A DNA stretch of 64,000 bases from Dictyostelium discoideum. Its lineage: Eukaryota. A model generated the notes under the pieces. That model searched no databases. It was not told the DNA's origin and saw nothing but the letters and a program-made list of their open reading frames with translations. The stretch is taken from the NCBI GenBank assembly GCA_000004695.1, contig CM000150.2:3776001-3840000 (forward strand), written 5' to 3'. This document shows positions 7,828-60,838 of this stretch, piece after piece (the first letter of the stretch is position 1; each line of letters opens with the position of its first letter). The position numbers and the translations under genes were made by a program.

Positions 7828-9196
7828 ATGGAAGGTACGATAATTAATAATTATTATTATAAATTTTTAAAATATAAAATAAAAATAAAATCAATCACCA
7901 CTCGCTTTTTTTTATTTTTTTTATTATTACCTATTATTTTATTTTCCAATTTTTTCTATTCACATAAAGAATAATTGAACAAGTATTATAATAGTAATAA
8001 TAATAATAAATAACTTTATCATTTAAACAACACTCATTATTTTGTTAACAATTAAAAAAAATAATCGTTTTTTTTTTTTTTTTTTTTTTCTCAATTTTTT
8101 TTACCACTTTTTTTTTTTTCAACCGAAATATTATTATTATTATTTATTATTTTTTTAAATTTAATATTAATATGTTTTATTTTAAAAAATTATTATAGGA
8201 AGAGGTGGTTCTAGAGGTGGTGCTATGGCTCGTGGTGGTGGTCGTGGTGGTTTTGGCGGTGGTAGAGGTGGTTTTGGCGGTGGTGATCGTGGTGGCCGTG
8301 GTGGTGGTAGAGGTGGTTTTGGCGGTGGTGATCGTGGTGGTAGAGGAGGTTTTGGCGGTGGTCGTGGTGGTAGAGGTGGTTTTGGCGGTGGTGATCGTGG
8401 TGGTAGAGGTGGTGCCCGTGGTGGTAGAGGTGGTGCTCGTGGTGGTAAACCAGCTGCAGGTGGTAAACCAGGTGCTAAAGTTATTGTTGAAAAACATCCA
8501 AGACACGAAGGTGTATTCATTGTTAGAGGTAAAGAAGAATCATTAGCCACATTAAACTCTGTACCAGGTGAATCAGTTTACGGAGAAAAGAGAGTTTCAG
8601 TTGGTGAAGGCGAAGATAAAAAAGAATACAGAATTTGGAATCCATTCAGATCAAAGATTGCCGCCGGTTTACATCGTGGTGTTGATGAAATTCATATTAA
8701 ACCAGGTAGTAAAGTACTCTACATTGGTGCTGCTTCAGGTACTACCATTTCACATGTTTCAGATATAGTTGGTCCAACCGGTGTTGTCTATGGTATTGAA
8801 TTATCCCATCGTCCAGGTAGAGATTTAATTGGTATGGCCAAAAAGAGAACCAATGTTATCCCAATCATTGAAGATGCTCGTCACCCACAAAAATATAGAA
8901 TGCTCATCGGTATGGTCGATGTTGTATTTGCTGATGTTGCTCAACCAAATCAAGCTCAAATTGTTGCTCAAAACTCTGCTTACTTTTTAAAGAACGAAGG
9001 TCACTTTATCATTTCAATTAAAGCAAGCTGTATCGATTCAACTGCTCCAACTGAAGTTGTTGTACAAAATGAAATCACAAAATTAAAGAAAGAAAAATTA
9101 AGACCACAACATCTTTTAAAAACTTTAGATCCATATGAACGTAATCACTCTTTAGTAATTGGTGTCTATAGAAAATTTGGTTCATCTGAAAAATAA
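7828..9196 (+). CDS. fbl: rRNA 2'-O-methyltransferase fibrillarin (N-terminal GAR domain); predicted exons 7828..7834 (ATGGAAG) and 8199..9196
   Basis: ORF 8225..9196 carries GGRGGFGGG repeats followed by the conserved fibrillarin methyltransferase core ([14 protein letters not shown]...[21 protein letters not shown]-like, [15 protein letters not shown]). Frame 2 stays open upstream to a consensus acceptor ttattatag|GA AGA GGT GGT TCT AGA GGT at 8198/8199. ATG GAA G|gtacga at 7828..7836 supplies a phase-1 first exon, giving [17 protein letters not shown].... The alternative is an unspliced start at M8225. Confidence 0.7.
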
Positions 9197-25075: not shown

Positions 25076-26204
25076 ATGGAAAAAGAAAATTTGGAATTAG
25101 AAGAGCTTGAATTAAAAGAGAAATTAGATGAATCGATTAAAAGTAAAAATAGATTTTATTTTATTTTTTATTTTATTTATTTTATTTTATTTATTATTAA
25201 TAATATGTGTTTATTAATAATTTTACTTTTATTAAATTTTTAATAATTATTATTTTTTTTAAATTTTTTTTTTTTTTTTAGTTTGTAGAAGTAAAAGTGA
25301 AGAATTGGTTAATAATTTAAAATATTGTTTAGAAAGTAGAGATTTTGAAAAATTTAATGATTTTTTCGATCCAAAAGCAGTATTAAATCATTGTAATGAA
25401 GAGATAATTGGTAGAAATTTAATAAAGAATTCTATAAATGACCTTTATATTGATAAAGAATTAAAACTTTACAAAGTAAGAACATTGATTGATTCAAATC
25501 AAAGACATATTGCATGTGAATGGGTCACAAGAAGAAGAGATTTAAATAGTGATAACCAATATGACCAAGGTATGGCAAGTTGGTATTTAAAATTATCACC
25601 AAATGATTATACCGTTAAAACATGGTATATTTGGATTGACAGAGTTTTCGATGGTGATAAAGTCGCAAATTTACAAATACCAATACCAAAGGAATCAGGC
25701 TGGATACCATGTCCCATTCAGTATTATTCTCGTAAGGAGATGTCTGAATTCTTGCGTTTAAGAAGTCAATCGTTTGAAGAGGAGGATTTGGATTTGTGGG
25801 GATCATACATTCATGATGACATTGTTGTACGTCCACCTTGGAATGAACAGGTCAATAAGAATTGTTGTATCGAAGGTGCAAAAGAGTTCTTTAACAATTA
25901 TGATTCTCCATCCATATCGAAAATGGAGTTACTCTATGATGAAACTATTCCAAATTGGTGTGTTTACATTCAAATCTTTTCAAGTACAAATAAAAAAACT
26001 GGTAAAAAAGGTGAAGATATTGATTTTGTTTTCAATGAAATTATTGATGGTAAAGTTCGTTATTGGAGATCTTATTTCAATGCAAATTTTAATAAAATTT
26101 TTACTGAAAATAATTTTAACTTTTTCATTGAAACTTTATCAAAATGTTCAAAAAATCAAAAAAATTTAGAAAATCAAAAAAAATTAAATTCATCAAATAA
26201 TAAC

Positions 26205-26240
<36 letters not shown>

Positions 26241-26258
26241 GGTAGTGGTAAAGATTAA
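25076..26258 (+). CDS. hypothetical protein, possibly tandem NTF2/SnoaL-like domains; exons 25076..25142, 25282..26258
   Basis: ATG GAA AAA GAA AAT TTG GAA...ATT AAA A|gtaaaaatag gives a phase-1 donor. The acceptor ttttttttag|TT TGT AGA AGT AAA AGT GAA GAA TTG GTT joins in frame 0 to ORF 25305..26258, whose listed start is TTG, so the true N-terminus is the upstream ATG exon. No confident family assignment. Confidence 0.5.
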
Positions 26259-30513: not shown

Positions 30514-31971
30514 ATGAATAAAATTTTAATTTTATTTATTTGTGTATTATCATGTTTTATTAATAGTGCTCAATCATTAACTTTACCTCAATTAACAGCT
30601 CAAATTAATGGTAAAGTAATTTCACAATCTTCACCAGACTTTAACAATGCTCGTTTTGGTTACAACTATCGTTATAATAGAGTACCACAAATTATTGTTC
30701 AACCATTAGATACTGCATCAGTTGTTTTAGCTTTAGAATATGCTCAAACCAATAACCTCTTAGTATCAGTCAAATCAGGTGGTCATTCAGCCATTGCTGA
30801 AGGTGTTCAAGATCTTCGTGTTGTTATCGATGTTTCACAAATGAAACAAATTTCATACGACCCAGTTTCAAATATTATCACCACCCAAAGTGGTAATAAA
30901 TGGGTTGAAGTTTACAACTACACAATCAATCAACATCAAGTTGCCACACCAGGTGGTTCATGTCCATCCGTTTCAGTTGGTGGTTTAACATTAGGTGGTG
31001 GTGCCAATGATCTTTCAACCGTACACGGTCTTGCCACTGATAACGTTGTTGAATTAGAAGTTGTTCTTGCCAATCGTTCAGTTGTCATTGCTAACGAACA
31101 AACCAATGTTGATCTTTTCTGGGCTCTTCGTGGTGGTGGTCATGGTGGTTTTGGTATTGTTACCCTCTTCAAATTCAGAGCTCATCCAGTTCTCCCAACT
31201 TATTACAGCGCTTGGATTACCTATGCATGGTCTGATTTTGAAGATGTTTTAACCTATGTCAACACATTCTCTGAAACTATGCCAAACACTGTCAATCTTT
31301 ACTTCACCGCTTGGAGAAGTTCAAATGCCACAAATCCATCAGTTGCCCTCTCATGTTTCTTCAATGGTCCATCTCAACTCGGTGAAAGCCATTGTGGTTC
31401 ATTCAGAAACTTCTCTGGTTCTAAAAGAAACACCTATATCACTCCAGTCACCATCTCTGTAACAAACGCCTCATACTATGAAACCGTCAAAAATGGTACT
31501 GATCCAAAAGCAAGATCATCATACACTAGTGGTTCTTTCCTCACTGGTATCGATAAAAAAGTCATTAAAAATATTAAAACTCAATTGGAGAAATCACCAG
31601 TCACTCCATACACTTTCAACACTGCTAGATTAAATTTATACTGGCAAGGTGGTCAAATGCTCAACCAAGCTAGAGATTACAATGCTTACGTTCATCGTAC
31701 TTATCCATGGAATGCCGTTTGGTTAGTAAGTTATACTGGTGGTGAATTTGAAGAACCATACAGAAAATGGATTAAACAAACCTATCGTAAATTTGAATCA
31801 TTCTCTGAAGGTGTTTATCAAAATTATCCAGATGAAAATAATCTCGATAATTGGGCTGAAGCTTATTATATGGAAAATTATCCAAAATTACAAGTTGTTA
31901 AAGCTACTTATGATCCAAATAATTACTTTAGATTTGCTCAATCAATTGGTTCACCATCATTATCATCATAA
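30514..31971 (+). CDS. secreted FAD-linked oxidase, berberine-bridge-enzyme-like (PCMH-type FAD-binding + BBE C-terminal domain)
   Basis: A 485-aa ORF with a signal peptide (MNKILILFICVLSCFINSA), the SGGHS covalent-FAD His motif, GGSCPSVSVGGLTLGGG, and a BBE-type C-terminus (YQNYPD...NW...NYPKLQVVKATYDPNNYFRFAQSI). Codon usage is shifted to C/T-ending codons, as in highly expressed Dictyostelium genes. Confidence 0.8.
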   Translation: MNKILILFICVLSCFINSAQSLTLPQLTAQINGKVISQSSPDFNNARFGYNYRYNRVPQIIVQPLDTASVVLALEYAQTNNLLVSVKSGGHSAIAEGVQDLRVVIDVSQMKQISYDPVSNIITTQSGNKWVEVYNYTINQHQVATPGGSCPSVSVGGLTLGGGANDLSTVHGLATDNVVELEVVLANRSVVIANEQTNVDLFWALRGGGHGGFGIVTLFKFRAHPVLPTYYSAWITYAWSDFEDVLTYVNTFSETMPNTVNLYFTAWRSSNATNPSVALSCFFNGPSQLGESHCGSFRNFSGSKRNTYITPVTISVTNASYYETVKNGTDPKARSSYTSGSFLTGIDKKVIKNIKTQLEKSPVTPYTFNTARLNLYWQGGQMLNQARDYNAYVHRTYPWNAVWLVSYTGGEFEEPYRKWIKQTYRKFESFSEGVYQNYPDENNLDNWAEAYYMENYPKLQVVKATYDPNNYFRFAQSIGSPSLSS

Positions 31972-41625: not shown

Positions 41626-42924
41626 TTATTTTTCTAATAATTTATCAAATTTTCTTTGGTCTAAAACTATTGACTGAATTTCTTCAAATAATTTATCTTC
41701 AGAAATTTTTCTTTGAGGTAATTTATTGAATAAATCTATACATTCATCATAAGTTGCTTGAATTAGATCAGAGATGAAGTAACGTAGAATGGATAGTGCA
41801 GTTCTATATATGAAAATTTCACCTTCAATGAAAACTAAATCCCAAATACGAGTTGCAACATCCAATGGCAATGCTTTTGAGAAGAGGGTTGTTATCCAAT
41901 CGACTAAATAATTCTTTGCACTTATACCAATCTCTTTGAAATGTTTATGTAGTGGTGGTGTCAATGCCTCAACCGTTGAATCCATTGCCGCTAAATATTT
42001 TGGTATACCAGATTGATCTTGACGAAAGAATGGTAAGAAACAAACACTATTGATATGATTTGATAATGATAGAAATGCATCACATTTCTCCATATTCAAT
42101 AGAAACATCGCCGCCAAGAACGTCATGCCCGGCACGTACCCAATGTCGGGCCTGTAGCAAATATAGGCCCCCAACACGTCGATCAAATCGCTATGTAGCG
42201 GACCGCCCTTTTGAAAGATCATCAACGATGGGAACGTGTCTTGAATATCCTGTAAAATCAACGCCATATTAGTCGTCTCCAAATCCAACACGTCATCCTC
42301 GCCATCGGTTGATGTATTCATCGGTGATCTACTATGATGTATTGAATTATTTGCCTGTCTTAAATCTATATTTATATTTGGTGATTTCGATGATGACGAT
42401 AGTGATGATTTTAAAGGTGGTGAAGTAGTTTTATTATATGCGTTATTCGCATGCCCTAAAAATATATTGAAAAGTTCATCGGTGACACGAAGATCATTGC
42501 CTATGCATAGTCTCCAAATTTTGCCGCGCACTGCTGGTGGCAGTCCCCTCCATGATAAATCTTTTATCTTTTTTATATCTCTTTTCTTGCTGTTCTTCTC
42601 CCACACTGGTATGATATCCTCTTCCCATACCTTTCTTGCATCTATCAATGATCTCTCTTTTTCTTTTCTAATTGCATCTAGTTTCTCTTTTTCTTTTGCT
42701 TCTCTCTCTAAAGTTTTCTTTGCTTTCCTCTGTATCTCTTCATATTCTCTCTGATGTTTTAATACTTCCTCTTGTGATTTTGGTGGTAATGTTTTTGGTC
42801 TATCCAATGATGAACTTGGACTTAAAATTAATTTCTCAACTTTACCTGTTGTCACTAATTCTTTATAATTTTCTGGTAAATCACATTGATTATTATTATT
42901 ATTACTACTATTACTCTCTGACAT
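41626..42924 (-). CDS. TBC (Rab-GAP) domain protein, TBC1D12/13/14-like, with both catalytic-finger residues substituted
   Basis: A single 432-aa ORF. It has a coiled-coil K/E-rich N-half. The TBC domain contains WRGLPPAVRGKIWRLCIGNDLRVTDELF, ILQDIQDTFPSL (the canonical IxxDxxRTFP Arg is D here), and GYVPGMTFLAAMFLL (the canonical YxQGM Gln is P here). Confidence 0.75.
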   Translation of the reverse strand: MSESNSSNNNNNQCDLPENYKELVTTGKVEKLILSPSSSLDRPKTLPPKSQEEVLKHQREYEEIQRKAKKTLEREAKEKEKLDAIRKEKERSLIDARKVWEEDIIPVWEKNSKKRDIKKIKDLSWRGLPPAVRGKIWRLCIGNDLRVTDELFNIFLGHANNAYNKTTSPPLKSSLSSSSKSPNINIDLRQANNSIHHSRSPMNTSTDGEDDVLDLETTNMALILQDIQDTFPSLMIFQKGGPLHSDLIDVLGAYICYRPDIGYVPGMTFLAAMFLLNMEKCDAFLSLSNHINSVCFLPFFRQDQSGIPKYLAAMDSTVEALTPPLHKHFKEIGISAKNYLVDWITTLFSKALPLDVATRIWDLVFIEGEIFIYRTALSILRYFISDLIQATYDECIDLFNKLPQRKISEDKLFEEIQSIVLDQRKFDKLLEK

Positions 42925-44453: not shown

Positions 44454-45391
44454 ATGAGTGAAATAACACAAAAACCAGAATTAATAAAATATTTATCAAT
44501 TATACATCATTTAGGAGCAGCACATATAGAAACTATAAATGGATTTTTACAAAAACCATCATATATTGGTTTAAGTCCACCCATTACATTATTACCATCA
44601 GGGTCGGATCAAAAGTTAAACAATGATACATTATACCAAATTGCAACAGTTTTAGAGAGAATGGATGATACACAATTCGATGATGTTATATTTTATTTAA
44701 CCAAACAACTTAGACAACCATTGGACCCTGATGAACATCGCCGTCTATCAGAGATATCTTTAACATTGAAGGTATCGCCAGACTATTTAAGTTCAATTGG
44801 TAGAATCTATCAATCATTTCAATTATTCGAGCTATTAACTTGCCACTGTACAGAAGAACATATCAATAAATTAAAGAATGCCTTGACCTCGGTATTCCCA
44901 TTGCCAATGGAGTCCACCGAGGACCAGGATGTTTTAAATCAATTGGTGACACCATCAAAACAAAAGAATTATTTATCAATTTTAGAGAAACTAAAACAAT
45001 TGTTCATACGTACTCGTATCGACTCAATATTACACATTCAAAGTGAAATGATGGAATATCAACAAAATCCATTAGGTAAACAATCAATCACTCAACAACA
45101 TATATGTGACACTTTGGATATTAAATCTGACGAATATTATTTAGCCACTTGTTTAAAAGAGTTATTATTAACTGATGAATTTACTCTCACTTCACTCGCT
45201 GATACATTTCCAAAACTTCAACCATTACAATTACTTCAACTCTCATTATTACCATTTAAAAATATTTATGAAATTTTAGATTTACGTTTAAATTTTGTAA
45301 ATCTTTCTTCAACTTATCAAATTTATGCACCATTACCAAATGATTTAGAATTTAATTATCAATTACCAAATCCAAATAAGTAAGTTTTTTT

Positions 45392-58759: not shown

Positions 58760-60838
58760 ATGGAAAGATTATCAATTATTTGTAATCATTTTGAAGATAA
58801 TGATTCATTAGAATCAAATGAAGTTGCAGCAAATTCTAATAATAATAATATTAATAATAATAATAATAATGGATTAGCAACATTAAATCAAAATTCATTA
58901 AATAATTTAATTCAAATTAATTCAAAGATTAACTTGGATTCAGAAAAGATTGAAAAAATTACAAAAATATTATTTGACCATCCAGATAAAGAATGGACAG
59001 CAGCACGTAATAGATTAATAGAGGTATTGAAAGATCCAATCTTTGAGTGTAAACCATATGCGTCATTCCATGAACAAAGAGAATTGGCACAAAAGAGAGT
59101 AGCACATTTAGCATCGATACCAGGTGGACCAATTTTAAAAGTTGGTGAAATCGTATCAAACTATAAGAAATTTTCAATGTTTCAATCTACATTGGTCTAT
59201 TGCGATATGTCAATGGCAGTGAAATCCTCAGTGCATTGGGGTTTATTCGGAGCATCGGTATGTTGTTTAGGTTCAGAGAAACACGAGAAATATTACGACG
59301 ATATCGATACTTGCAAAATGAGTGGCTGTTTTGCATTGACAGAGTTGGCTCATGGTTCAAATGTGAAAGGTGTTGAAACCATTGCAGAGTACGATAACAA
59401 GACACAAGAGTTTGTAATTCACACACCATCAGACACAGCACAAAAGATTTGGATTGGTAATGCTGCAACCTATGGTTGTTTTGCTACAGTGTTTGCAAAT
59501 TTAATTTCAAATGGCGAGAATTATGGTTTACATCCATTCCTTGTACAAATTAGAGACACCACAACATTGAAACCATTGGCAGGCATCACAACAGCTGATA
59601 ACGGACCAAAGATTGGGTTGAATGGTGTTGATAATGGTCGTTTATGGTTTAACAAGGTTAGAATCCCACGTGATAATCTTTTGAACAAGTTTGGTGATAT
59701 TGATGCCAATGGTGTTTATAGTACACCAATTAAGAATCCAAGCGTTCGTTTCAATTCAATGTTAGAGTCGTTGATTGGTGGTCGTATCACTGTTGCAAAT
59801 ATGGCAAATTCAGCAGCAAAGATGGGACTTTACATTGCTTTACATTATGCATTCTCACGTCGTCAATTTGGTCCATCCAATGGTAAAGAGGTGTTGTTAA
59901 TCGATTATATCACACATCAACGTCGTTTATTCCCACAATTGGCAGAGGTTTACATCAATCAAGTCGGTATAAATTATGTTATCAATAAATTCCAAAATAG
60001 AACTGAAAAGGATGCAAGAGATGTCTTCCTATTGGCATGTGGTTTCAAAGCAGCAACAACTTGGAATCGTTCAAAAACTTTACAACTCTGTCGTGAATGT
60101 TGTGGTGGTCAAGGTATGGCAGCAAGTAATAAAATTGGTATTCTTCGTGCTGATACCGATGTAGATTTAACCTACGAAGGTGATAACACAGTACTAATGC
60201 AAGCCGTTGCCAAAGCATTGCTTCAAGAGTTTAAATCCTATTTCACCGGTACAAAACGTATAACTGGTATGTTGAGTTACACCTATTCCAAGGGCCACAT
60301 TGGTATCTTTTTAAGAAATAAAAACTTTTTCACCAAACGTTTACACACAGAATCCCATCTATTGGATCCAGATGTATTGTTGGATGCTTTCATCTATCGT
60401 GAATTCAAACTCCTTCGTAACTTGATCAAAACTCTTAGAGCCAAAGTAAAGAATGAAAAAATGACAGGTCTTCAAGCTTGGAATAGTAGTTTGGATTTAG
60501 TACTTCAATTGGCAAATGCTTACATTGAAAGAGTTTCCATTGAGAAATTCTTGGAAGAAGTTCAAAAATCTCCAGAAGATATTAAACCAATCTTAACTTC
60601 ACTTTGTATCCTCTATGAATTAACAAAGATTGAAAATGATCTTGGTTGGTTCCTTTCAAATAAATACTTTGCACCAGTTAAAGGTCAAGCAATTGGTAAT
60701 ACAATCAATAAGGTTTGTGGTGCATTAAAAGATCATGCAATTCCATTAGTTAAAGCATTTGATATTCCATCTCAATTTTTAACTGCTCCAATTATTGGTG
60801 ATTGGGTTTCTCATTTTTCAAATCCAAATAATTGTTAA
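58760..60838 (+). CDS. peroxisomal-type acyl-CoA oxidase (ACOX family)
   Basis: A single 692-aa ORF with the acyl-CoA dehydrogenase/oxidase fold motifs (CFALTELAHGSNVKGVETIAEYD, HTPSDTAQKIWIGN, GRLWFNKVRIPRDNLLNKFG, CRECCGGQGMAASNKIGILRADTDVDLTYEGDNTVL). Confidence 0.85.
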   Translation: MERLSIICNHFEDNDSLESNEVAANSNNNNINNNNNNGLATLNQNSLNNLIQINSKINLDSEKIEKITKILFDHPDKEWTAARNRLIEVLKDPIFECKPYASFHEQRELAQKRVAHLASIPGGPILKVGEIVSNYKKFSMFQSTLVYCDMSMAVKSSVHWGLFGASVCCLGSEKHEKYYDDIDTCKMSGCFALTELAHGSNVKGVETIAEYDNKTQEFVIHTPSDTAQKIWIGNAATYGCFATVFANLISNGENYGLHPFLVQIRDTTTLKPLAGITTADNGPKIGLNGVDNGRLWFNKVRIPRDNLLNKFGDIDANGVYSTPIKNPSVRFNSMLESLIGGRITVANMANSAAKMGLYIALHYAFSRRQFGPSNGKEVLLIDYITHQRRLFPQLAEVYINQVGINYVINKFQNRTEKDARDVFLLACGFKAATTWNRSKTLQLCRECCGGQGMAASNKIGILRADTDVDLTYEGDNTVLMQAVAKALLQEFKSYFTGTKRITGMLSYTYSKGHIGIFLRNKNFFTKRLHTESHLLDPDVLLDAFIYREFKLLRNLIKTLRAKVKNEKMTGLQAWNSSLDLVLQLANAYIERVSIEKFLEEVQKSPEDIKPILTSLCILYELTKIENDLGWFLSNKYFAPVKGQAIGNTINKVCGALKDHAIPLVKAFDIPSQFLTAPIIGDWVSHFSNPNNC

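What the first reader, a model, noticed from the sequence alone, without database searches (positions are those of the whole stretch)
42105..42330. Sharply GC-rich codon island inside the TBC-domain gene
In a gene and genome that are otherwise ~25% GC, a ~220-bp stretch of the minus-strand exon uses GC-ending codons almost exclusively. Examples are ...GAC GTG TTG GGG GCC TAT ATT TGC TAC AGG CCC GAC ATT GGG TAC GTG CCG GGC ATG ACG... and ...CAA AAG GGC GGT CCG CTA CAT AGC GAT.... This patch covers exactly the catalytic core of the TBC domain (IxxDxxRTFP and YxQGM regions). It also creates antisense ORFs (42060..42272+, 42467..42754+). Such a local composition spike could reflect any of these:
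- a recent gene-conversion or foreign-DNA patch;
- strong selection on mRNA structure or translation pausing;
- an embedded regulatory element or ncRNA on the opposite strand.
Basis: seen in the sequence. Interest (0 to 1): 0.55.

Follow-up and report, generated by a model that had tools for sequence, protein, structure and literature searches.

The report
Lineage-specific GC codon island in drainin
A 216-bp stretch of the Dictyostelium discoideum drainin gene has swapped over half of its A/T-ending codons for rare G/C-ending ones without changing the protein, which looks like GC-biased gene conversion in a species reported to show none genome-wide.

Summary
The gene at 41626-42924(-) is drainin/phgA, identical to AX4 O96904 over 426 aa. 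Codons 201-272 (window 42109-42324) reach GC3 0.67-0.85 while GC at codon positions 1 and 2 stays flat. No other 70-codon window in about 10,000 codons of this 64 kb exceeds GC3 0.41.

Codon alignments with six group-4 relatives show it arose in place. The amino acids are identical, and island GC3 climbs from 0.29-0.35 (purpureum, dimigraforme, firmibasis, citrinum) to 0.41, 0.59 and 0.67 (two cryptic sister species, then D. discoideum). On the path to D. discoideum there are 26 AT-to-GC changes against 2 GC-to-AT. All are synonymous, nearly all are transitions, and they are spread over three successive branches and interspersed along the tract.

Ruled out or unsupported:
- foreign DNA
- assembly artefact
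- structured RNA
- a constrained antisense ORF
- translational codon optimisation

Sister lineages fixed different G/C bases at the same sites, so composition is being driven, not a motif.

Best explanation, inferred: a transient, narrow GC-biased gene-conversion hotspot. A local mutational hotspot and selection for GC or rare codons remain open. The gene is a known one; the island is a locus-level curiosity of moderate interest.

The parts
41626..42924 (-). Single-exon CDS of drainin/phgA (432 aa), a catalytically inactive TBC/RabGAP-like Rab11a effector of the contractile vacuole
   Evidence: ORF and translation. Pfam RabGAP-TBC E=1.2e-44 over aa 131-387. Same 90% cluster as DDB_G0269130/O96904 'Drainin' and 100% identical to it over 426 aa. 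'No measurable GAP activity' and Rab11a effector are from PMC3315810.
42109..42324 (-). Main synonymous GC3 island (codons 201-272). GC3 is 0.67 (G3 0.43, C3 0.24), with 19 CpG and 29/75 rare codons
   Evidence: Polarised changes: 22 AT-to-GC against 2 GC-to-AT relative to citrinum=firmibasis, with 54% of ancestral A/T third positions flipped. Fitch parsimony gives 26 against 2, with 28 of 29 changes at codon position 3.
42442..42630 (-). Second, weaker patch of AT-to-GC synonymous substitutions (codons ~99-161, covering the RxxxW motif region). GC3 is 0.39, against 0.19-0.20 in citrinum, firmibasis and dimigraforme
   Evidence: 13 AT-to-GC against 0 GC-to-AT. Codon alignment; GC3 by region.
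42325..42441 (-). Unaffected gap between the two patches (codons 162-200). It is a low-complexity Ser/Asn-rich insert that includes a length-variable TCA (Ser) repeat. GC3 is 0.10
   Evidence: 1 AT-to-GC change among 26 ancestral A/T third positions, against 35/89 in the two patches, Fisher p=2.6e-4. Indels between species at codons 172-180.
42229..42258 (-). TBC motif B position, reading ILQDIQDTFP. The arginine finger is replaced by Asp229
   Evidence: Translation. Conserved as D in C. fasciculata, A. subglobosum, T. lacteum and H. album.
42124..42138 (-). TBC motif C position, reading YVPGM. The glutamine finger is replaced by Pro265
   Evidence: Translation. Pro is conserved in all dictyostelid orthologues examined.
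42060..42272 (+). It is a by-product, not a gene
   Evidence: Listed. The frame is open in all six D. discoideum-clade, citrinum, firmibasis and dimigraforme sequences regardless of the island. Its translation differs at many residues even between D. discoideum and its sister species.

Best explanation
The island is the footprint of a narrow, lineage-specific process that drove A/T-to-G/C substitutions to fixation at synonymous sites of drainin, while purifying selection held every amino acid constant. The most likely mechanism is GC-biased gene conversion at a transient recombination or heteroduplex hotspot in the D. discoideum clade.

**Proposed mechanism (inferred).** During sexual (macrocyst) recombination, heteroduplex DNA repeatedly forms over this ~200-bp tract. 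A:C and G:T mismatches at heterozygous sites are repaired preferentially towards G:C, especially T:G mismatches in a CpG context. New G/C alleles are therefore over-transmitted and fix. The G/C-ending rare codons, the CpG excess, the ACGT cores and the long antisense ORFs are all side effects.

**What is shown.**
- The island originated in place.
- The changes are directional, entirely synonymous and spread over several branches.
- Composition is what is driven, not a specific sequence.

**What is inferred.**
- That the cause is a fixation bias linked to recombination, and not a mutational bias or selection.
For: - **In-situ origin with an unchanged protein.** The codon alignment of seven group-4 species has identical amino acids across codons 212-279, while third positions change.
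- **Stepwise rise of island GC3.** Values are 0.29-0.35 in the four outgroup species, then 0.41, 0.59 and 0.67. The rest of the gene stays at 0.17-0.25 in all species.
- **Direction of change.** On the path to D. discoideum there are 26 AT-to-GC changes against 2 GC-to-AT (A>G 14, T>C 11), with 28 of 29 at codon position 3. By branch the AT-to-GC counts are 2, 8, 10 and 6.
- **Rates.** The AT-to-GC rate per ancestral A/T third position is 0.54 in the island and 0.059 in the N- and C-terminal flanks. That is 9-fold, p=3e-11.
  - The GC-to-AT rate is 0.125 against 0.33, lower in the island as a fixation bias predicts, but not significant.
  - Implied equilibrium GC3 is 0.81 against 0.15.
  - The log-odds shift is about 3.2, the order of strong hotspots elsewhere.
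- **Any G/C will do.** D. discoideum and its sister species fixed different G/C bases at the same site (codon 217 G vs C, 240 C vs G, 252 G vs C). Each lineage also has private AT-to-GC changes.
- **Transience.** Acceleration relative to the rest of the gene is 1.7x, 4.9x, 3.6x, 1.4x and 0x on the five branches of the D. discoideum clade. This fits hotspot turnover.
- **CpG-creating changes.** They are favoured inside the island (18/23) and absent outside it (0/52). This would fit repair of T:G mismatches towards C:G.
- **Not translational selection.** The codons gained (CCG, ACG, GCG, GGG: 1-2% family share) are the rarest in this genome.
- **Precedent.** Pessia et al. 2012 report a chromosome-length/GC correlation of -0.94 for D. 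discoideum, consistent with some GC-biased conversion.
Against: - A genome-wide study of D. discoideum found no coherent evidence of GC-biased gene conversion. It tested GC against chromosome position, intron GC against GC3, and the allele-frequency spectrum of intronic AT-to-GC against GC-to-AT SNPs (PMC8321536).
- No recombination data exist for this locus here, and I had no polymorphism data to separate fixation bias from mutation bias.
- The 117-bp gap between the two patches shows 1 change in 26 available sites. A single conversion hotspot does not predict that.
- A-ending codons flipped somewhat more than T-ending ones (18/25 against 12/27, p=0.055). This hints at strand asymmetry, which conversion alone does not predict.
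- The homologous region also has raised GC3 in C. fasciculata and H. album. That could mean a position-specific cause, although in-gene GC3 heterogeneity is common in H. album.
Confidence: 0.45

Rival explanations
1. A local mutational hotspot with an A:T-to-G:C bias. Candidates are error-prone repair synthesis at a recurrent lesion or break, or adenine deamination on the exposed non-template strand in a transcription bubble or R-loop. Neutral fixation would follow. As the coding strand becomes G-richer, R-loop formation could reinforce itself.
For: - Nearly all changes are A:T-to-G:C transitions.
- The synonymous divergence of the island is about 2.7-fold that of the rest of the gene between D. 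discoideum and one cryptic sister species (20/75 against 35/352).
- A-ending codons on the non-transcribed strand changed more often than T-ending ones (18/25 against 12/27, p=0.055).
- The coding strand has positive GC skew in the island.
- The GC-to-AT rate is not significantly reduced (p=0.18), as expected if only mutation input changed.
- This explanation needs no GC-biased conversion, in line with PMC8321536.
Against: - No known process gives a 9-fold AT-to-GC mutation excess confined to ~200 bp for tens of millions of years in one lineage and switched off in a sister lineage (0 private changes in one cryptic species).
- Transversions to G/C also occur at the same sites (codons 217, 240, 252).
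- Both strands are strongly affected.
- The strand asymmetry is marginal.
Confidence: 0.22
2. Selection on synonymous sites. One version is a rare-codon cluster that slows ribosomes while the central TBC helices fold. Another is selection for higher local GC or CpG content affecting mRNA stability, export or chromatin.
For: - The island is a dense cluster of the rarest codons: 29/75 with under 10% family share, and relative adaptiveness 0.13-0.26 against 0.4-0.8 elsewhere.
- The low-complexity, probably disordered insert between the two patches is spared.
- The same region has raised GC3 in C. fasciculata (0.52 against 0.18-0.30) and H. album (0.64-0.69 against 0.26-0.37).
- CpG-creating changes are favoured inside the island but avoided outside it.
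Against: - The protein sequence of the island is identical in citrinum, firmibasis, dimigraforme and nearly so in purpureum. All of these use ordinary AT-ending codons there, and T. lacteum has GC3 of 0.21. Any folding requirement would have to be new to one clade.
- The equally conserved C-terminal half of the TBC domain is unaffected.
- No RNA-structure signal.
- Different G/C bases were fixed at the same site in sister lineages.
Confidence: 0.2
3. An embedded functional element on either strand: an antisense transcript or ncRNA, a small antisense protein, or an exonic transcription-factor binding cluster (for example the ACGT cores).
For: - Five ACGT cores lie in 225 bp, against 61 in the whole 64 kb.
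- The 10-bp string GACGTGTTGG occurs twice.
- The antisense ORFs exist.
Against: - No Rfam family matches even at E<=1.
- The antisense fold z-score is -1.31.
- The antisense ORF translation is not conserved even among the three closest lineages, and the frame is open in relatives that lack the island.
- The sequence is evolving fast and directionally, not being conserved.
- Different G/C bases are fixed at the same site in sister lineages.
- The ACGT cores arise automatically when Asp-Val, Tyr-Val and Thr-Phe codon pairs switch to G/C endings.
Confidence: 0.06
4. A foreign-DNA patch, ectopic conversion from a GC-richer paralogue, or an assembly or polishing artefact.
For: Only the sharp edges and the atypical composition.
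Against: - Amino acids are identical to the orthologues.
- Derived sites are interspersed and distributed over three nested branches.
- The derived states are shared by three independently assembled genomes.
- No blastn match in plasmids or phages.
- The closest paralogues share under 40% amino-acid identity, too divergent for conversion.
Confidence: 0.02

Closest known systems
GC-biased gene conversion hotspots / 'biased clustered substitutions' (for example the Fxy gene of Mus musculus after its move across the pseudoautosomal boundary, and human accelerated regions with AT-to-GC bias). Recalled from established literature, not tested here
   Same: - A sudden, lineage-specific rise in GC3 in part of a gene.
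- A strong excess of AT-to-GC over GC-to-AT substitutions.
- An elevated local substitution rate and a sub-kilobase scale.
- Indifference to which G/C base is fixed.
- No adaptive rationale.
   Different: - The host genome is 22% GC. It is reported to lack detectable genome-wide GC-biased conversion (PMC8321536). To my knowledge it also lacks Spo11.
- Only synonymous sites changed, with no collateral amino-acid changes.
- The tract is very short (216 bp) and entirely exonic.
- There is an unaffected 117-bp gap before a second patch.
- No recombination evidence is available for the locus.
Drainin / TBC1D12-TBC1D14 family of catalytically inactive RabGAP-like Rab11 effectors
   Same: The host gene is drainin itself, 100% identical to AX4 O96904 over 426 aa. 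It has the TBC fold and lacks both catalytic fingers.
   Different: This identifies the gene, not the compositional anomaly. Nothing known about drainin function predicts a GC island.
Rare-codon clusters proposed to tune co-translational folding
   Same: A contiguous run of very rare codons within a structured domain.
   Different: Functional rare-codon clusters are expected to be conserved among orthologues. This one is absent from close relatives encoding the identical peptide.

Membership tests
Drainin (phgA) / TBC-domain RabGAP-like proteins | Pfam RabGAP-TBC domain above the gathering threshold | tested here: met
   PF00566 at 153 bits (cut-off 25.2) over aa 131-387. PF23436 at 98.9 bits.
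Drainin (phgA) / TBC-domain RabGAP-like proteins | Orthology to D. discoideum DDB_G0269130 / UniProt O96904 | tested here: met
   Same 90% cluster. 426/426 identical residues. Conserved neighbours in the relatives: a BK-channel gene in five of the six and a TIG/ankyrin gene in all but D. dimigraforme.
Drainin (phgA) / TBC-domain RabGAP-like proteins | Absence of the catalytic Arg (IxxDxxR) and Gln (YxQ) fingers, in line with no measurable GAP activity | tested here: met
   The sequence reads IQDIQD229TFP and YVP265GM, conserved across dictyostelids. The lack of activity is stated in PMC3315810 and was not assayed here.
GC-biased gene conversion tract | Excess of AT-to-GC over GC-to-AT substitutions, polarised by outgroups and clustered in space | tested here: met
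   26:2 by Fitch parsimony and 22:2 by outgroup agreement. The per-site rate is 9-fold that of the flanks, p=3e-11.
GC-biased gene conversion tract | Acts regardless of function or of which G/C base is gained, and is not explained by codon preference | tested here: met
   Different G/C bases at the same site in sister lineages. The gained codons are the rarest in the genome. Only synonymous sites could be assessed, because no non-coding DNA lies within the tract.
GC-biased gene conversion tract | AT-to-GC alleles segregate at higher frequencies than GC-to-AT alleles (fixation bias, not mutation bias) | not testable with these tools
   Needs population SNP data for phgA. Only single genomes per lineage were available. 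The GC-to-AT rate is lower in the island (0.125 against 0.33) but not significantly (p=0.18).
GC-biased gene conversion tract | Coincides with a recombination or heteroduplex hotspot | not testable with these tools
   No recombination map was available. Only 4 phylogenetically incongruent sites occur in the gene, which is uninformative.
Structured ncRNA / antisense gene | Match to a known RNA family, thermodynamic stability beyond composition, or a conserved antisense product | tested here: not met
   No Rfam hits. Fold z-scores are -0.03 and -1.31. The antisense ORF translation is not conserved.
Horizontally acquired or ectopically converted patch | Sequence discontinuity with the orthologues, a contiguous block of derived states from one event, and a donor sequence | tested here: not met
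   The protein is identical to the orthologues, and derived sites are interspersed over three or more branches. No match in plasmids or phages. Bacterial chromosomes and the rest of the D. discoideum genome were not searched.

The most novel reading that the evidence does not exclude
D. discoideum has been used as a 'gBGC-free' reference species and, to my knowledge, carries out meiosis without Spo11. The most novel reading is that it nevertheless has narrow, short-lived and very strong GC-biased, CpG-favouring conversion hotspots inside genes. The phgA island would then be the first mapped footprint of such a hotspot. It would give a sequence-level handle on where Spo11-independent recombination initiates, and a caveat for codon-usage studies that assume no biased conversion in this species.
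Probability: 0.3. Interest if true: 0.6.

Novelty: new member of a known kind. Interest (0 to 1): 0.38.

Why it matters
The gene itself is long known, and nothing here changes what drainin does. What matters is the evolutionary process.

A published genome-wide analysis treats D. discoideum as essentially free of GC-biased gene conversion, and builds its inference of adaptive codon preference on that assumption. This locus shows the opposite locally: over half of the available synonymous A/T sites switched to G/C, and to the genome's rarest codons, within one clade.

If such islands recur genome-wide, three things follow:
- They would mark recombination or repair hotspots in an organism whose meiotic break machinery is unknown.
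- They would create local exceptions to codon-usage models.
- They would be a source of spurious 'foreign DNA' or 'antisense ORF' calls in AT-rich genomes.

If it is a one-off, it is a tidy textbook-style example with no wider consequence.

Tried and rejected
- **Rfam.** At gathering threshold on the whole window, and at E<=1 on 41900-42800, there were no hits.
- **tRNA scan.** None found.
- **RNA folding of the island, both strands.** No stability beyond dinucleotide-shuffled controls.
- **blastn (distant mode) of the island against plasmids and phages.** No match. Bacterial chromosomes were not scanned. An exact-word scan would be uninformative, and the orthologue alignment already excludes a foreign origin.
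- **Antisense ORF.** Translated in all seven species and not conserved.
- **The other GC peak in the window (8150-8450).** This is the fibrillarin Gly/Arg-rich repeat domain, an unrelated phenomenon driven by amino-acid composition.
- **Metagenome scan for more drainin orthologues.** Only one usable extra dictyostelid contig (L012), with a mild GC3 rise of 0.23 against 0.07-0.22.
- **AX4 genomic DNA for phgA.** Not on record in the contig index. Presence of the island in AX4 is therefore inferred only from 100% protein identity.
- **BK-channel exon 1 as a neighbouring control.** It is low-complexity and poorly alignable, giving 5 AT-to-GC against 6 GC-to-AT over 95 codons. TIG/ankyrin exon 1 gave 10 against 4 over 170 codons.
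- **A conserved, position-specific island across Dictyostelia.** Considered because C. fasciculata and H. album show raised GC3 at the same place. Down-weighted because a neighbouring H. album ORF shows equally large in-gene GC3 swings, 0.14-0.63, and because T. lacteum and the close group-4 relatives lack the island.
- **ADAR-type editing followed by retro-conversion.** Rejected on prior knowledge, since ADARs are metazoan-specific, and because both strands and transversions are involved.
Full report
**Provenance and the gene.**
The window is from a Dictyostelium discoideum genome (GCA_054883475.1, contig JBTAPE010000039.1). This is one of the long-read assemblies described by Holland et al. 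2025.

The minus-strand ORF 41626-42924 is a single exon of 432 codons. It has a RabGAP-TBC domain at aa 131-387. It falls in the same 90% cluster as DDB_G0269130 / UniProt O96904 'Drainin', and it is 100% identical to the AX4 protein over 426 residues. Only the annotated N-terminus differs.

Drainin is a Rab11a effector of the contractile vacuole with no measurable GAP activity (PMC3315810). In keeping with that, the two signature motifs read ILQDIQD229TFP and YVP265GM. Both the arginine and the glutamine finger are missing, in D. discoideum and in every dictyostelid orthologue examined.

Yes.
- GC in 200-bp windows peaks at 49-50% at 42100-42310, in a window that averages 21.9%.
- In reading frame, GC3 rises to 0.60-0.85 for codons 201-280. 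GC at codon positions 1 and 2 stays at 0.33-0.47, so the spike is purely synonymous.
- In 27 long ORFs of the window (9,957 codons), no other 70-codon window exceeds GC3 0.41, against 0.69 here. Third-position G alone is 0.43, against at most 0.24 elsewhere.
- 29 of 75 island codons have under 10% share of their synonymous family, against 36 of 357 in the rest of the gene. CCG, ACG, GCG and GGG each account for only 1-2% of their families in this genome.
- The only GC-richer stretch in the window (8150-8450) is the Gly/Arg-rich repeat domain of fibrillarin. That is an amino-acid effect.

**Where did it come from?**
I retrieved the orthologous loci of ten relatives:
- two cryptic sister species ('D. 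cf. discoideum');
- D. citrinum, D. firmibasis, D. dimigraforme and D. purpureum;
- four distant dictyostelids.

The codon alignment shows identical amino acids across codons 212-279 among the D. discoideum-clade, citrinum, firmibasis and dimigraforme sequences, with a single substitution in D. purpureum. Third positions differ.

Island GC3 by species:

| Species | Island GC3 |
|---|---|
| purpureum | 0.31 |
| dimigraforme | 0.29 |
| firmibasis | 0.31 |
| citrinum | 0.35 |
| cf. discoideum (locus L010) | 0.41 |
| cf. discoideum (locus L011) | 0.59 |
| D. discoideum | 0.67 |

The rest of the gene stays at 0.17-0.25 in every species.

Fitch parsimony on the seven sequences puts 26 AT-to-GC and 2 GC-to-AT changes in the island on the path to D. 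discoideum. The types are A>G 14 and T>C 11, and 28 of 29 changes are at codon position 3. The remaining one is a synonymous TTA>CTA. The AT-to-GC changes fall 2, 8, 10 and 6 on four successive branches.

With a stricter polarisation (citrinum = firmibasis as ancestor), the counts of AT-to-GC against GC-to-AT are:

| Region | AT-to-GC / GC-to-AT |
|---|---|
| Codons 1-87 | 5 / 6 |
| Codons 88-161 | 13 / 0 |
| Codons 162-200 | 1 / 0 |
| Codons 201-275 | 22 / 2 |
| Codons 276-432 | 4 / 6 |
| Neighbouring TIG/ankyrin exon 1 | 10 / 4 |

Per ancestral A/T third position, the AT-to-GC rate is 0.54 in the island and 0.059 in the flanks, a 9-fold difference (p=3e-11). Implied equilibrium GC3 is 0.81 against 0.15.

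The derived sites shared by all three D. discoideum-clade lineages, by two of them, or private to one are interspersed along the tract. They do not form contiguous blocks, and only four sites in the whole gene conflict with the species tree.

This is gradual accumulation in place. It excludes a foreign patch, a single ectopic conversion and an assembly artefact, since three independent assemblies share the derived states. blastn of the island against plasmids and phages finds nothing.

**What kind of force?**
Several features point to composition itself, not any particular sequence.
- D. discoideum and its sister fixed different G/C bases at the same site: codon 217 ACG vs ACC, codon 240 GGC vs GGG, and codon 252 GGG vs GGC. 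Each lineage also has private AT-to-GC changes.
- The sequence is changing fast and directionally. It is not conserved.
- There is no Rfam match, even at E<=1.
- Predicted folding is no more stable than dinucleotide shuffles, with z-scores of -0.03 sense and -1.31 antisense.
- The antisense ORF 42060-42272 is open in all the group-4 relatives except D. purpureum, whether or not they carry the island. Its conceptual protein changes with each sense-synonymous change, so it is a by-product.
- Translational optimisation is excluded, because the gained codons are the rarest ones. Published work also finds that preferred codons in this species are not GC-rich.

**Timing.**
Relative to the rest of the gene, the island is accelerated as follows:

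| Branch | Acceleration |
|---|---|
| Ancestor of the three D. discoideum-clade lineages | about 1.7x |
| Ancestor of D. discoideum plus its closest sister | 4.9x |
| D. discoideum branch | 3.6x |
| Closest sister (L011) | 1.4x |
| Other cryptic species (L010) | none |

The process switched on, peaked, and is lineage-dependent.

**Mechanism.**
The pattern has these features: clustered, directional AT-to-GC substitutions; sub-kilobase scale; transience; indifference to which G/C base is fixed; and indifference to codon optimality. That is the classic signature of GC-biased gene conversion at a recombination hotspot. Known examples are Fxy in mouse and AT-to-GC-biased accelerated regions in primates (prior knowledge, not tested here).

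If the whole shift were a fixation bias, the log-odds change of about 3.2 would correspond to a strong hotspot.

One extra detail fits a mismatch-repair origin. Synonymous transitions that create a CpG were fixed at 18 of 23 opportunities inside the island, and at 0 of 52 in the N- and C-terminal flanks. CpG count rose from 1-4 in citrinum, firmibasis and dimigraforme to 19, with CpG observed/expected of 1.43 and GpC observed/expected of 0.90. Preferential repair of T:G mismatches to C:G in a CpG context would do this. That link is my inference.

**Caveats.**
- A genome-wide study found no coherent signal of GC-biased conversion in D. discoideum. An older chromosome-scale analysis did report a negative chromosome-length/GC correlation. 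Broad-scale tests could miss rare, narrow, short-lived hotspots, but this remains evidence against my preferred explanation.
- I have no polymorphism or recombination data. A local A:T-to-G:C mutational hotspot therefore cannot be separated from a fixation bias. The GC-to-AT rate is lower in the island (0.125 against 0.33), as a fixation bias predicts, but not significantly (p=0.18). A-ending codons flipped marginally more than T-ending ones (p=0.055), a hint of strand asymmetry.
- The two affected patches (codons ~99-161 and 201-272) are separated by an unaffected 117-bp stretch encoding a low-complexity insert with a length-variable TCA repeat. It shows 1 change in 26 sites, against 35 of 89 in the patches (p=2.6e-4). 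I cannot explain this gap under a single-hotspot model. It is what selection limited to structured protein segments would predict. But the equally conserved C-terminal half of the TBC domain is untouched, and the close relatives with the same protein lack the island.
- C. fasciculata and H. album also have raised GC3 in the homologous region. However, in-gene GC3 swings of this size occur in a neighbouring H. album ORF. T. lacteum (0.21) and an unidentified metagenomic dictyostelid (0.23) show little.

**Verdict.**
The finding is a real and statistically extreme feature, and it is lineage-specific. It is a synonymous GC/CpG island that arose in place within drainin in the D. discoideum clade.

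It is not foreign DNA, not an artefact and not an embedded RNA or antisense gene.

Estimated likelihoods:

| Explanation | Confidence |
|---|---|
| Footprint of GC-biased gene conversion | about 0.45 |
| Local mutational hotspot | about 0.2 |
| Selection for GC or rare codons | about 0.2 |

The kind of phenomenon is well known in other eukaryotes. I found no report of one in Dictyostelium, and the prevailing view is that the process is negligible there. That gives the finding moderate interest and a clear set of follow-up tests.

Noticed in passing
window 42442-42630 (-), codons ~99-161 of drainin: A second, weaker patch of the same process. It has 13 AT-to-GC and 0 GC-to-AT changes, and GC3 of 0.39 against 0.19-0.20 in citrinum, firmibasis and dimigraforme. 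An unaffected 117-bp gap separates it from the main island.
   Followed up: yes
window 42325-42441 (-), codons 162-200: The low-complexity Ser/Asn insert inside the TBC domain has a length-variable TCA (Ser) repeat, with indels between every pair of species at codons 172-180. Its conserved part (codons 181-200) shows almost no AT-to-GC change despite sitting between two hot patches. This is unexplained.
   Followed up: partly
window 42229-42258 and 42124-42138 (-): Both TBC catalytic fingers are substituted: IxxDxxR becomes IQDIQD229, and YxQ becomes YVP265. The same holds in all dictyostelid drainins examined, and it matches the published lack of GAP activity.
   Followed up: yes
window 42109-42324 (-): CpG observed/expected is 1.43, with 19 CpG against 1-4 in citrinum, firmibasis and dimigraforme. 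CpG-creating synonymous changes were fixed 18/23 inside the island and 0/52 in the gene's flanks. Five ACGT cores lie here out of 61 in the whole 64 kb, and the 10-mer GACGTGTTGG occurs twice.
   Followed up: partly
L006 (C. fasciculata) and L009 (H. album), region homologous to codons 161-275: GC3 is also raised at the same place in two distant dictyostelids: 0.52 against 0.18-0.30 in C. fasciculata, and 0.64-0.69 against 0.26-0.37 in H. album. It is not raised in T. lacteum (0.21). This may be coincidence given the heterogeneous GC3 in those genomes, or a position-specific predisposition.
   Followed up: partly
window 8200-8450 (+): The highest GC in the window (about 61%) is the N-terminal Gly/Arg-rich (GGRGGFGG-type) tandem-repeat domain of fibrillarin (Pfam Fibrillarin, E=2.7e-101). 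It is driven by codon positions 1 and 2, not by synonymous sites.
   Followed up: yes
window 42907-42924 (-) versus AX4 O96904 N-terminus: The AX4 protein model starts MICFDNSTAHTDSNNNNN, whereas this assembly's model and ORF start MSESNSSNNNNN. The rest is 100% identical. One of the two start annotations is probably wrong, or there is a small 5' difference or intron.
   Followed up: no
window 44454-45383 (+), exon 1 of the TIG/ankyrin gene divergent from drainin: A mild AT-to-GC excess on the D. discoideum lineage (10 against 4 over 170 codons), and a local 70-codon GC3 maximum of 0.40. Other modest third-position-G-rich patches occur at 25305-26258 and 58760-60838 (acyl-CoA oxidase). These may be weaker instances of the same process.
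   Followed up: partly
L006, L007, L009 versus window 41626-42924: Drainin is intronless in the group-4 species. The tblastn matches are split near codons ~110-114 and ~308 in C. fasciculata, A. subglobosum and H. album, which suggests introns lost in the group-4 lineage.
   Followed up: no
window 30514-31971 (+): An FAD-binding/BBE oxidase gene has a local GC3 peak of 0.40 that is almost entirely C-ending (third-position G 0.03). This is the pattern expected from ordinary expression-linked codon preference in Dictyostelium, and a useful contrast with the G-rich drainin island.
   Followed up: partly
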